A stretch of DNA of 64,000 nucleotides, from assembly GCA_037379345.1 (NCBI GenBank), contig CM074517.1, positions 19,530,001 through 19,594,000 of the forward strand. The letters run 5' to 3'. This DNA is from Perna viridis (taxonomy: Eukaryota). Within the stretch, counting starts at the first letter, position 1, and every line of letters starts with the position of its first letter. Of the stretch, positions 48,001-51,000 are shown in pieces. Made by a program: the position numbers.

Positions 48001-51000
48001 TCCTGTCATTGTTGGCAGATGCCTGAAATCTGTAGTGGGTTTAAACTACTTTTATAAGGCCTCAACAATTCCCCTTTAATGTTAGTTCAAAAATGAACTC
48101 AATTTTACTTAAAATTCACTCAATAATACATCCAATTCTCTCCATGGAACACCTCAACATACATCATATAGACAAAATAAGATATCCACTTAAAGAAAGT
48201 TCACAGATACTTAAAGCTAGGTCAGAACATATTAAAAAATGAAAATACCATTAAAATTACCAGAATTAGAAATAATGGATCTCTACAATTTCAGTGGATT
48301 TGGAGCCGCAATTCCAAGAACTAAATAGGTAAACACTCCAGGATTACAATAGTTTCTGTTTGAAATTCTTCAAAGAACATCGTTTTTTGTCTAAAAACAC
48401 ACATAACTTGTGCTCTTATGAGCTTTTAATCAACACACACCAAAAACCTTGCCAGTTTTTCTGCATTAATAACTACATGTTAACTTATATAACTACATGT
48501 TTTCTTGATAAAAGCCTCAGCATTTTGTGCCAATTATAAGTAGCAGAGAATTTCTAGGTTATGTAATACAAACACTAATGTGTTCAGCAGTTGGAAAAGC
48601 AAGTGTTTCAAACTCATCAAAATGTATTCAATCTCAAAATCATCTCCTCTAAGTTGGTTAGACTGGAGTTCTTTAATCTGACAACTAGAAACCAATAATA
48701 TTTTATAATAATATGATAAATTGAAGTATTTCAAAACATAAACATTCTAAAGAGTAAAATCAGGCATGATATATAACATTATTTTGTACTTTGAATTAGT
48801 ATTTGGCCTTGACAATGATATGGTAATCATTCCAACTAAAAGAAAGAGCCTTAAATGAAATCTTTTGAAACATTGTGACAGGGTCAATTATGCCAAAGTG
48901 TTCATACAATGTCAACTTTGTCAAACTGTCAACTGTGTTAAAATGTTCCAAAACTGCCAACTATGTCAGAATGTCCCAACAGTGTCAACTACACCAAAAT
49001 TTTCCAACTTAGTCAACTATGTCAAAATGTTCCAGCAGTGTCAACTACACCAAAATGTTCTAAAAGTGTAAACTATGTCAAAATGTTCCAACAGTGTCAA
49101 CTATGCAAAAATTTTCCAAAAGTGTCAACCTTGTCAAAATGTTCCAACAGTGACAACTATGCCAAAATGTTCCGGCAAAGTCAACTATGTCAAAATGGTC
49201 CAACAGTGTCAACTATGCCAAAATGTCCCAAAAGTGTCAACCTTATCAAAATGTTCCAAAAGAATCAACTCTGTCAAAATGTTCCAGCAATGTCAACTAC
49301 ATCAGACTGTTCCAGCAGTGTCAACTATGCTAAAATGTTACAAAAGTGTAAACTATGTCAAAATGTTCCAAAAGTGTCAACAATGTCAGAATGTTCCAGC
49401 AGTGTCAACTACATCAAACTGTTCCAGCAATGTCAACTATGCCAAAATGTTACAAAAGTGTCAACAATGTCAAAATGTTCCAAAAATGTAAACCTTGTCA
49501 AAATGTTGCAAAAGTGTCAACTATGTCAAAATATTCCAAAAAGTGTCAACAATGTCAGAATGTTCCAGCAGTGTCAACTACATCAAACTGTTCCAACAGC
49601 GTCAACTACATCAAAATACATGTATGATTTTAGTTACTTTATGTTCTTTGTTGTGTATGTATATTTTCCATGTCGGGTCCTTGTCCCTGGATTGCATTCT
49701 TTTGATTACTGCTATAACCTTGGTTTCCATGATTACACTCTCCTATGAGTGGCCGTTCATGTCAAAATAGCGTTATTTTCATCTAAATGTAATTTTCTAT
49801 CTAGATACTAAAAAGTATCTAGATGCTTGTGAGAAGTATCTAGATAGTTGTTCGAAGCATCTAGATGCTTGTGAGAAGTATCTAGATAGTTGTGAAAAGC
49901 ATCTAGATGCTTGTGAGAAGTATCTTCACAGTTGTGCGAAGCATCTAGATGCTTTTGCAAAGTATCTAAATGTTTTTGAGAAGCATCTAGATTCTTGTGA
50001 GAAGTATCTAAATAGTTGTGCAAAGCATCTAGATTCTTGTGAGAAGTATCTAAATAGTTGTGAAAAGCATCTAGATGCTTGTGAGAAGTATCTAGATAGT
50101 TGTGAAAAGCATCTAGATGCTTGTGAGAAGTATCTAGATAGTTGTGCAAAGCATTTAGATGCTTGTGAGAAGTATCTTCACAGTTGTGCGAAGCATCTAG
50201 ATGCTTTTGCAAAATATCTAAATGTTTTTGAGAAGCATCTAGATTCTTGTGAGAAGTATCTAAATAGTTGTGAAAAGCATCTAGATTCTTGTGAGAAGTA
50301 TCTAAATAGTTGTGAAAAGCATCTAGATGCTTGTGAGAAGTATCTAGATAGGTGTGAAAAGCATCTAGATGCTTGTGAGAAGTATCTAGATAGTTGTGCA
50401 AAGCATTTAGATGCTTGTGAGAAGTATCTTCATTGTTGTGAAAAGCATCTAGATGCTTTTGCAAGTATCTATATGCTTTTGAGAAGCATCTACATGCTTG
50501 TGAGAAGTATCTAGGTAGTTGTGTTAAGCATCTAGATGCTTGTGAGAAGTATCTAGATAGTTGTGCAAAGCATCTAGATGCTTGTGAGAAGTATCTTCAC
50601 AGTTGTGCGAAGCATCTAGATGCTTTTGCAAAGTATCTAAATGTTTTTGAGAAGCATCTAGATTCTTGTGAGAAGTATCTAAATAGTTGTGAGGAGTTTT
50701 TGTGTATCTAGATACTTGTAAGAAGCATCTAGTTACTTGAATGAAGCATCTAGATAGTTTTGCGAAGTATCTAGATAGAAAATTACATCTACATGAAAAT
50801 AACGCTATTTTGACATGAACGGCCACTCATACTCTCCTACATCTAGGACAATTATTGTACCCAAGGAACAAAATGAATCCATACATTACATCACAGTTTC
50901 CATGACTTCCTTTAATTCTTCAGAAACCTTAAACTTAATATATTAACAGAACATCAACAGATCACATGTCTATTCTGTGGTAAAACCATGACACTGTGGC

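What the first reader, a model, noticed from the sequence alone, without database searches (positions are those of the whole stretch)
49738..50837. Intact IS3EU-type MITE whose whole body is a higher-order array of its own palindromic subterminal motif
Seen: 66-bp TIRs with only 2 mismatches and a perfect CTCTCC TSD, so the insertion is probably young. The interior is about 45 copies of a 21-mer built on the palindrome AGCATCTAGATGCT (variant AGTATCTAGATAGT), arranged as 21, 42 and 252-bp periods. The inner end of each TIR carries the same TATCTAGATA core. Known: TAY..RTA ends with a 6-bp TSD define the little-studied IS3EU superfamily, and MITE-borne tandem arrays occur in bivalves. Inference: the array is an amplified transposase-binding site, phased every two helical turns (21 bp). 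The element could be a mobile satellite seed, a protein-binding sponge or a cruciform-prone cassette.
Basis: partly seen in the sequence, partly recalled or inferred. Interest (0 to 1): 0.7.

Follow-up and report, generated by a model that had tools for sequence, protein, structure and literature searches.

The report
Transposon filled with its own end-motif repeats
A 1.1-kb non-coding jumping-gene relic in a mussel-like genome whose interior is a tandem array copied from a two-palindrome module in its own ends; it shows how a transposon can seed satellite DNA, but it belongs to a known kind.

Summary
A 1,088-bp element (49744-50831) has 66-bp terminal inverted repeats (TIRs) with 2 mismatches, TA..TA ends and a perfect 6-bp duplication, CTCTCC.

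Its interior is 21 copies of a 42-bp dimer, which pairs a C-type core (CATCTAGATG) with a T-type core (TATCTAGATA). The dimers are ordered in a 252-bp higher-order repeat.

New here: each TIR carries both cores, 18 bp apart. The only two TIR mismatches lie in the C-type core. The inner ~30 bp of the TIR aligns with the array dimer. So the array is an amplified copy of the TIR's inner two-core module.

Ends and duplication fit IS3EU/GingerRoot as described in print. No transposase partner, other copy or repeat catalogue could be checked, because no eukaryotic genome collection was available.

That the cores bind transposase is inferred. Single-unit cruciforms look weak, although the single-stranded array folds strongly.

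Array-bearing non-autonomous transposons and IS3EU-derived tandem repeats are already described. I call it a new member of a known kind, of moderate interest.

The parts
49738..49743 (.). [quoted passage not shown]
   Evidence: It aligns with the end of the dispersed repeat that was hit, so it is native target sequence.
49744..49809 (+). Left terminal inverted repeat, 66 bp, starting TATGAGTGG. The outer 36 bp are unique sequence; the inner 30 bp hold two palindromic cores.
   Evidence: 64 of 66 positions match the right arm; unique in the window.
49780..49789 (.). C-type core in the left TIR (CATCTAAATG, 1 mismatch to CATCTAGATG). Contains TIR mismatch position 43.
49798..49807 (.). T-type core in the left TIR (TATCTAGATA). 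It lies 18 bp from the C-type core and 18 bp from the first array core.
49811..50692 (+). Main tandem array: 21 copies of a 42-bp dimer. The A unit is AAAAGCATCTAGATGCTTGTG and the B unit is AGAAGTATCTAGATAGTTGTG. All copies are in direct orientation, with one 1-bp deletion near 50464.
49895..50146 (+). Higher-order repeat copy 1 (six 42-mers, 252 bp)
   Evidence: mismatch matrix; 5 of 252 mismatches to copy 2.
50147..50398 (+). Higher-order repeat copy 2 (252 bp)
50399..50565 (+). Higher-order repeat copy 3, truncated to four 42-mers, more diverged and carrying the 1-bp deletion
   Evidence: units 15-18.
50566..50692 (+). Partial higher-order repeat copy 4 (three 42-mers), with 1 of 126 mismatches to units 3-5
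50693..50765 (+). An 8-bp offset (core spacing 29 bp) followed by three diverged 21-bp units. These stay in 21-bp phase with the T-type core of the right TIR.
   Evidence: 50706-50777, period 21, 80% matches; core spacings.
50766..50831 (-). Right terminal inverted repeat, ending CCACTCATA. Its inner end, AGTATCTAGATAG, is a B-unit core in the same orientation as the array. The T-type core is at 50768-50777 and the C-type core at 50786-50795 (CATCTACATG, TIR mismatch position 40).
50832..50837 (.). [quoted passage not shown]

Best explanation
This is a non-autonomous cut-and-paste DNA transposon. Its TA..TA ends and 6-bp target duplication fit the IS3EU/GingerRoot superfamily. It sits in intergenic, repeat-rich DNA of a bivalve (mytilid-like) genome.

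Each end has 36 bp of unique terminal sequence followed by a module of two palindromic cores 18 bp apart: CATCTAGATG and TATCTAGATA. The interior is that module amplified. One copy of the module, in the orientation of the right end, was duplicated in tandem into a 42-bp dimer. The dimer array then grew by slipped-strand or unequal exchange into a 252-bp higher-order repeat of 3.5 copies.

Shown:
- the anatomy of the element;
- the homology between the TIR module and the array dimer;
- the higher-order structure;
- the strong self-complementarity of the single strand.

Inferred:
- a trans-acting IS3-like DDE transposase mobilised it;
- the palindromic cores are that transposase's subterminal binding sites, each half-site taking one DNA-binding domain of a dimer, so the element carries about 49 potential binding sites;
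- hairpin formation by the quasi-palindromes during replication drives the array's expansion and turnover.
For: - **Ends and TSD:** 66-bp TIRs with 2 mismatches and a CTCTCC duplication. Chance of the 6-bp repeat is about 6e-4.
- **Published definitions met:** TA..TA termini and a 6-bp TSD (PMC10045372, PMC6839031 and PMC12730594 passages). Styx, an IS3EU-related fungal element with a 36-bp TIR and 6-bp TSD, was seen to insert 32 times in a pedigree (PMC10853768 passages).
- **TSD composition:** the TSD is 4 of 6 G+C in a window of 31.6% G+C (one search counts). GingerRoot prefers G+C-rich targets (PMC6839031). This is a single observation.
- **Cores in the TIRs:** two per TIR at 18-bp spacing, against a background of 7 cores in 62,912 bp.
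- **Ancestral palindrome:** both TIR mismatches fall in the C-type core, and each arm is one step from the perfect palindrome.
- **Module homology:** the array dimer aligns with the inner ends of both TIRs, with both cores and the GAAAA spacer shared and a net 3-bp length difference.
- **Orientation:** the array is direct throughout and in phase with the right end.
- **Recent turnover:** higher-order copies 1 and 2 differ at 5 of 252 positions; units 19-21 and units 3-5 differ at 1 of 126.
- **Single-strand folding:** the array folds at -192 kcal/mol against -84.3 +/- 3.9 for 20 shuffles, z = -27.8.
- **Precedent for binding sites in transposon tandem repeats:** Galileo THAP-domain footprints in the tandem repeats of its long TIRs (PMC3688188 abstract).
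- **No coding role:** the array's 247-aa frame has no relatives at E <= 1e-5.
Against: - Only one copy was seen, so mobility as a family, consistency of the TSD and presence of the array in other copies are all unknown.
- No IS3EU transposase was linked to these TIRs.
- hAT6 families also make 6-bp TSDs (PMC12730594 passage).
- The fifth terminal base differs from the fungal TAYGG motif (here TATGA).
- Core conservation in the array may simply reflect recent duplication, and 9 of 21 A units have lost the perfect 16-bp palindrome.
- B units are less conserved than A units: only 8 of 21 keep G at the central TCTAGA position.
- No IS3EU transposase binding site has been defined in anything I read.
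Confidence: 0.55

Rival explanations
1. The anatomy is as described, but the palindromic cores are not protein-binding sites. The array is then a neutral minisatellite that arose because a quasi-palindromic subterminal stretch is prone to hairpin slippage, and it plays no part in transposition.
For: - Single-strand folding energy has z = -27.8.
- The 42-mer folds as a 12-bp stem between neighbouring units.
- Many units are decaying: 9 of 21 A units and 13 of 21 B units depart at core positions.
- DTC84 repeats also carry a palindrome that its authors propose as a hotspot for length variation (PMC3879986 abstract).
Against: The same two cores sit at a fixed 18-bp spacing in both TIRs, outside the array. 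Subterminal transposase sites lie there in other families (general knowledge; Galileo in PMC3688188 abstract). The two views are compatible for the growth of the array and differ only on the origin of the motif.
Confidence: 0.35
2. It is a non-autonomous member of another superfamily that also makes 6-bp duplications, for example hAT6, and not IS3EU/GingerRoot.
For: hAT families with 6-bp TSDs exist in animals (PMC12730594 passage). No transposase is linked to this element. Classification from ends alone is weak.
Against: The termini are TATGAG..CTCATA. They fit TA..TA and TAYG (PMC10045372, PMC12730594) and do not fit the hAT end consensus as I recall it (YARNG; recalled, not from a call). 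Polinton (AG..TC) and Ginger (TG..CA) ends, as given in PMC6839031, do not fit either.
Confidence: 0.12
3. It is a Tc1/mariner-type (Stowaway-like) element with a TA duplication, spanning TGAGTGG..CCACTCA. The flanking CTCTCC repeat would then be coincidence or a pre-existing local duplication.
For: The sequence reads CTCTCC-TA-[TGAGTGG..CCACTCA]-TA-CTCTCC-TA, so a TA flanks a shorter element on both sides.
Against: It needs a further 6-bp direct repeat exactly abutting both TAs, with chance about 6e-4. The left CTCTCC belongs to the target repeat family.
Confidence: 0.03
4. It is a Helentron-type array carrier of the Pearl/DTC84/MgE kind known from bivalves, or a Foldback-type element.
For: The host is a bivalve, the centre is a tandem array, and the repeat units contain palindromes (PMC3879986 abstract; PMC7492417 passages).
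Against: Those elements lack TSDs and insert at T-rich or TT sites (PMC7492417). This element has a 6-bp TSD and 66-bp truly terminal TIRs. Foldback-type elements have inverted arrays within long TIRs, whereas this array is one direct run.
Confidence: 0.03
5. The array is a protein-coding heptad repeat: 21 bp equals 7 codons, and the frame is open for 247 aa on the + strand and 262 aa on the - strand.
For: Open frames were found. Many coiled-coil Pfam families match it (83 families on the + frame).
Against: - Both strands are open, which is typical of a repeat whose period is a multiple of 3.
- The frame starts inside the TIR and is broken by the 1-bp deletion.
- The Pfam hits are scattered low-complexity matches to unrelated families.
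- No protein in the 5.8-billion-sequence set scored E <= 1e-5 (near-length proteins only).
Confidence: 0.02

Closest known systems
[quoted passage not shown] IS3EU-1N1_DR is cited in the reference list of PMC11934779. Styx is described in PMC10853768.
   Same: TA..TA termini, a 6-bp TSD, TIRs of tens of bp, and a G+C-rich target (one observation).
   Different: No transposase is linked to this element. The TIR of 66 bp lies between Styx (36 bp) and GingerRoot (100-150 bp). The fifth terminal base differs from the fungal TAYGG. No two-core palindromic subterminal module is described in the passages I read.
HSymIS3EUlR of Hydractinia symbiolongicarpus (PMC11934779). Also CgiSat35 and CgiSat47 of Crassostrea gigas (PMC8268682, Table 1) and TCAST10 of Tribolium (PMC5844308).
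   Same: IS3EU-related sequence associated with tandem repeats, so IS3EU derivatives that turn into tandem or satellite DNA are already recorded.
   Different: Those have long units (182, 690, 129 and about 490 bp). They were identified by similarity to Repbase entries, and the passages I read give no intact TIR/TSD anatomy. Here the unit is 21/42 bp, palindromic, demonstrably derived from the element's own TIR, and enclosed in an intact element.
Galileo, Foldback and Tetris elements of Drosophila (PMC3688188 abstract; PMC4079207 seen only as a search listing and the start of its abstract)
   Same: Tandem repeats derived from or lying in the terminal regions. In Galileo they contain transposase (THAP) binding sites. 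Tetris supplied building blocks for a satellite.
   Different: They belong to other superfamilies (Galileo to the P superfamily). Their repeats lie inside long inverted TIRs. Here a single direct array fills the interior between short TIRs.
Pearl, DTC84 and MgE tandem-repeat 'MITEs' of bivalves; Pearl has been re-categorised as a non-autonomous Helentron (PMC3879986 abstract; PMC7492417 passages)
   Same: Bivalve host, a central array in ordered variants, and a palindrome in each unit proposed as a hotspot of length change.
   Different: They have about 160-bp units in up to 5-6 copies, only short subterminal inverted repeats, and no 6-bp TSD (a putative AA for DTC84; none for the oyster HINEs), so the insertion signature differs.

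Membership tests
IS3EU/GingerRoot | 5'-TA..TA-3' termini (PMC10045372; 72 of 77 GingerRoot elements in PMC6839031) | tested here: met
   The element starts TATGAG and ends CTCATA.
IS3EU/GingerRoot | 6-bp target-site duplication | tested here: met
   CTCTCC on both sides; a seventh base does not match. Chance is about 6e-4. Only one copy was examined.
IS3EU/GingerRoot | Terminal inverted repeats of 30 bp or more (36 bp in Styx; 100-150 bp in GingerRoot) | tested here: met
   66 bp, 64 of 66 positions identical.
IS3EU/GingerRoot | Extended end motif TAYGG..CCRTA, reported for fungal IS3EU families (PMC12730594) | tested here: inconclusive
   TATGA..TCATA matches 4 of 5 positions. The motif is reported for fungi only.
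IS3EU/GingerRoot | An autonomous relative with the same TIRs that encodes an IS3-like DDD/E transposase | not testable with these tools
   No eukaryotic genome collection was on hand. Within the window, 73 of 75 frames of 70 aa or more were scanned and none has an integrase or transposase domain.
MITE | Non-coding, with TIRs and a TSD | tested here: met
MITE | Small size (conventionally below about 800 bp; recalled, not from a call) | tested here: not met
   The element is 1,088 bp. Without the array it would be roughly 150-250 bp.
MITE | High copy number of near-identical copies | not testable with these tools
   One copy in 64 kb. The rest of the genome was not available.
Helentron non-autonomous elements (Pearl, DTC84, HINE) | No 6-bp TSD (none in the oyster HINEs; a putative AA in DTC84), insertion at T-rich or TT sites, and subterminal rather than terminal inverted repeats (PMC7492417; PMC3879986) | tested here: not met
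   6-bp TSD CTCTCC and truly terminal 66-bp TIRs.
Foldback-type elements (FB, Galileo, Tetris) | Long TIRs that are themselves built of tandem repeats in inverted orientation | tested here: not met
   All 21 dimers and the 3 right-hand diverged units are in one orientation. Only the two cores inside each TIR are inverted.
hAT6 | 6-bp TSD together with hAT-type ends (YARNG; recalled, not from a call) | tested here: inconclusive
   The TSD length fits, but the ends TATGA do not fit the recalled consensus. No transposase is available to decide.
Higher-order-repeat satellite DNA | Monomer variants ordered in a longer repeating unit, in long arrays | tested here: inconclusive
   The 252-bp higher-order structure is shown. 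The array is only 0.9 kb and lies inside a transposon. Whether long arrays exist elsewhere is untestable here.

The most novel reading that the evidence does not exclude
The element gives a first look at how an IS3EU-type transposase reads its ends: a two-core palindromic module at 18-bp spacing, bound by dimers. It is also a mobile cassette carrying about 49 such sites at two-turn spacing. As such it could out-compete or titrate its autonomous partner, and wherever it lands it deposits a ready-made, hairpin-prone higher-order array able to grow into a satellite. This would be a TIR-transposon route to satellite DNA in bivalves, separate from the Helentron route already described.
Probability: 0.2. 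Interest if true: 0.6.

Novelty: new member of a known kind. Interest (0 to 1): 0.35.

Why it matters
IS3EU/GingerRoot is one of the least studied superfamilies of eukaryotic DNA transposons. [quoted passage not shown] A large bivalve transposon survey did not include it among its 17 DDE profiles (PMC10294476 passages).

This intact copy shows, within one element, the step from a subterminal motif in the TIR to a 42-bp dimer to a 252-bp higher-order array. It is a compact example of a transposon seeding satellite-like DNA.

It also yields a concrete, testable candidate for the transposase recognition site. If genome-wide copies confirm it, bivalves would have a second carrier of tandem arrays, a cut-and-paste one, beside Helentrons.

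A practical point follows as well. The array is an open 247/262-aa heptad frame that attracts false coiled-coil domain hits, which is a trap for gene predictors.

Tried and rejected
- **Other copies in the window.** The TIR 29-mer with up to 3 mismatches and a low-stringency blastn of the 66-bp TIR found only the two arms.
- **Paralogous empty site.** The left flank (49620-49743) is the end of a dispersed repeat with five other copies in the window. These copies diverge exactly where the TSD ends, so they confirm that the left CTCTCC is target sequence but give no empty site.
- **TIRs around the other arrays.** The arrays at 19965-20952, 39177-39404 and 62691-63063 have none. For 48923-49617, none was seen among the 25 of 70 inverted pairs listed, all of which lie inside the element.
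- **Other copies via translated array frames.** No protein scored E <= 1e-5 among the 8,000 candidates scored, near-length proteins only.
- **Transposase in the window.** None was found.
- **RNA genes.** 0 Rfam matches and 0 tRNAs.
- **Literature by sequence string.**
  - A 27-mer of the array found 0 papers.
  - Four 16-18-mers of the TIR and cores found 0 papers.
  - A 9-mer of the core is absent from the one C. gigas satellitome supplement held. CgiSat43, that satellitome's 21-bp satellite, has an unrelated sequence.
  - A 7-mer of the core and the other search terms are absent from the Limnoperna satellitome main text, and 11-12-mers of the cores are absent from its two supplement files.
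- **Literature by name.** 'IS3EU' occurs in 62 papers, of which 25 were listed. Among the 30 papers listed when six terms were combined with the bivalve names, only 2 hold 'IS3EU' (a poorly designed query).
- **Not used.** There is no Repbase or Dfam here. Genome-wide copy number, TSD statistics, the autonomous partner and catalogue status therefore stayed unchecked.
- **Spliced gene model.** The THSD7B-like gene was examined exon by exon only.
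Full report
**Observation**

The region was read directly. The element spans 49744-50831 (1,088 bp, 34.6% G+C).
- Its two ends are inverted repeats of 66 bp that differ only at positions 40 and 43. From position 67 inward the similarity collapses.
- It is flanked by CTCTCC on both sides (49738-49743 and 50832-50837). A seventh base does not match.
- Two 6-mers of this window are identical by chance with probability 6e-4. 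Empirically, 43 of 60,799 position pairs at the same distance match.
- The first 29 nt of the TIR occur only in the two arms in 64 kb, against 0 expected. A low-stringency blastn of the whole TIR found nothing else.

**The array**

- Tandem Repeats Finder reports 49811-50692 as 21.0 copies of a 42-bp unit at 86% matches, and 50706-50777 as 3.4 copies of a 21-bp unit at 80%.
- The 42-mer is a dimer. The A unit, AAAAGCATCTAGATGCTTGTG, contains the perfect 16-bp palindrome AAGCATCTAGATGCTT, which is intact in 12 of 21 A units.
- The B unit is AGAAGTATCTAGATAGTTGTG. Only 8 of 21 B units keep G at the central TCTAGA position.
- Self-identity is 0.70 at lag 21, 0.78 at lag 42 and 0.61 at lag 252, against 0.50 and 0.49 at lags 231 and 273.
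- In register, 42-mers six units apart differ by 3.07 mismatches on average, against 4.18-6.62 at other lags. Only 2 of 20,000 shuffles of unit order do as well.
- Writing the four 42-mer variant types as c, d, e and f (x is a diverged unit), the order of variants is f f | c d e e f f | c d e e f f | c d' x f | c d e.
- The two full 252-bp copies differ at 5 of 252 positions. The last three units differ from units 3-5 at 1 of 126 positions. The third copy is truncated, more diverged and carries a 1-bp deletion.

I scanned for the core class YATCTAGATR with at most one mismatch. It gives 45 hits in the element and 7 in the remaining 62,912 bp. Four of the 45 lie in the TIRs, two per arm.
- A C-type core sits at TIR positions 37-46. 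It reads CATCTAAATG on the left and CATCTACATG on the + strand of the right arm.
- A T-type core, TATCTAGATA, sits at positions 55-64, 18 bp further in.
- The only two TIR mismatches are in the C-type core. Each arm is one step from the perfect palindrome CATCTAGATG, so the ancestral TIR probably carried it intact.
- The array alternates C-type and T-type cores every 21 bp.
- A local alignment of a B-A stretch of the array with the inner end of either TIR pairs both cores and the GAAAA spacer, with a net 3-bp length difference.
- The right TIR's inner end, AGTATCTAGATAG, is a B core in the same orientation as the array.
- Three diverged 21-bp units (50701-50765) keep 21-bp phase with it, after an 8-bp offset from the main array.
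- The left junction is 18 bp and inverted.
- A direct array cannot create the inverted module at the left end. The simplest history is that the two-core module is an original part of both TIRs, and that one copy, in the right-end orientation, was amplified.

**Context**

- The window is bivalve DNA. An exon at 7029-7739 (- strand) is 68% identical to a thrombospondin type-1 domain-containing protein 7B-like protein of Mytilus californianus.
- The exons of that gene map to 12393-3154 on the - strand.
- The element lies about 37 kb upstream of that gene, in repeat-rich DNA with no detectable gene.
- Of 75 stop-to-stop frames of 70 aa or more, 73 were scanned against Pfam. Only the TSP1 exons, weak chance hits and repeat-driven coiled-coil hits appeared, and no integrase or transposase domain. 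The two frames left out are sub-frames of the array.
- There are no Rfam or tRNA matches.
- The insertion sits at the very end of another dispersed repeat that has five further copies in the window.
- That repeat here follows a 28-bp x 24.8 array.
- No flanking TIRs were found for the arrays at 19965-20952, 39177-39404 and 62691-63063. For the neighbouring 28-bp array, the 25 of 70 inverted pairs listed all lie inside the element itself.

**Mechanism**

What is shown:
- the element has the full signature of a cut-and-paste insertion;
- it cannot encode its own transposase;
- its interior is an amplified paralogue of its TIR's inner module;
- amplification went through at least three levels (21/42/252 bp), with recent turnover.

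As single-stranded DNA the array folds at -192 kcal/mol, against -84.3 +/- 3.9 for 20 shuffles (z = -27.8). Single units are weak: the A hairpin is -4.1 kcal/mol, the B unit forms none, and the 42-mer reaches -7.4 by pairing neighbouring half-sites. I therefore favour replication slippage or unequal exchange on hairpin-prone DNA as the driver of growth. I regard unit-level cruciforms in duplex DNA as unlikely.

That the cores are transposase-binding sites is inferred from two things:
- their fixed position and spacing in both TIRs;
- the general rule that subterminal repeats of DNA transposons bind transposase, for which Galileo gives experimental precedent in tandem repeats (PMC3688188 abstract).

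The exact 21-bp phase follows automatically from tandem duplication and is no evidence of selection.

**Comparison with what is known**

IS3EU is described as always having TA..TA termini and usually 6-bp TSDs (PMC10045372 passages).
- GingerRoot, which falls in the same lineage, has TA..TA ends in 72 of 77 elements, mostly 6-bp TSDs, 100-150-bp TIRs and G+C-rich targets (PMC6839031 passages).
- Fungal IS3EU families end TAYGG..CCRTA (PMC12730594 passage).
- Styx (36-bp TIR, 6-bp TSD) was seen to transpose in a pedigree (PMC10853768 passages).
- The present element meets the terminal, TSD and TIR criteria and 4 of 5 positions of the extended motif. The defining transposase link is untestable here.

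Other families:
- Rivals with 6-bp TSDs are hAT6 (PMC12730594) and Polinton and Ginger2. The last two have ends AG..TC and TG..CA, which do not fit (PMC6839031).
- The classical bivalve 'tandem-repeat MITEs' (Pearl, DTC84, MgE) share an architecture different from this one. Pearl has been re-categorised as a non-autonomous Helentron, and the oyster HINEs lack a TSD (PMC7492417 passages; PMC3879986 abstract). They are analogues and not relatives.
- IS3EU-related tandem repeats are already on record: a Hydractinia IS3EU-like repeat with a 182-bp internal period at putative centromeres (PMC11934779 passages), CgiSat35 and CgiSat47 in C. gigas (PMC8268682 table), and half of TCAST10 in Tribolium (PMC5844308 passages).

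**Novelty and limits**

No paper in the searched library holds the TIR or core strings. They are also absent from the C. gigas and Limnoperna satellitome files that I could search. Several things stayed unchecked:
- Repbase and Dfam;
- the host genome;
- bioRxiv supplements.

The element could therefore already be catalogued. The phenomenon, a non-autonomous TIR transposon carrying an array derived from its ends, is known. The IS3EU-type ends, the two-core palindromic module and the 252-bp higher-order structure make this a well-preserved new member of that kind.

**Verdict**

- Observation: confirmed.
- Interpretation: partly supported.
- Interest: 0.35.

The boldest reading not excluded is a mobile cassette of about 49 transposase sites that seeds satellites or titrates transposase. 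It would also give the first view of IS3EU end recognition. I give it a probability of 0.2.

Noticed in passing
window 48923-49743: A 28-bp x 24.8 tandem array (48923-49617) is followed by a tail of about 125 bp. The tail is the end of a dispersed repeat with other copies at 58075-57957 (-), 21568-21466 (-), 52968-53082 (+), 6-101 (+) and 57020-57068 (+). The studied element inserted at the very end of this repeat. It may be a Helentron-type array carrier, but that was not tested.
   Followed up: partly
window 57000-57068 (+) and 58095-58028 (-): Two copies of the start of that same dispersed repeat face each other as an inverted pair of about 69 bp, roughly 1 kb apart. This may be a separate TIR-like structure.
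   Followed up: no
window 49771-50511 (+) and 49811-50596 (-): The array is an open frame of 247 aa and 262 aa on the two strands, because 21 bp equals 7 codons. It draws dozens of false coiled-coil Pfam hits (83 and 35 families), which is a trap for gene prediction.
   Followed up: yes
window 3154-12393 (-): 5' exons of a thrombospondin type-1 domain-containing 7B-like gene, 66-82% identical per exon to a Mytilus californianus protein. The gene runs off the left end of the window.
   Followed up: partly
window 19965-20952; 39177-39404; 62691-63063; 4959-5119; 8043-8206: Further short tandem arrays (40 bp x 25, 56 bp x 4.1, 52 bp x 7.2, 52 bp x 3.1, 47 bp x 3.5). The first three were checked and have no flanking inverted repeats. 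The window is unusually rich in minisatellite-like arrays.
   Followed up: partly
window 51065-51298 and 55672-55914: Another dispersed repeat just right of the element, with the two copies 81% identical over 243 aligned columns.
   Followed up: no
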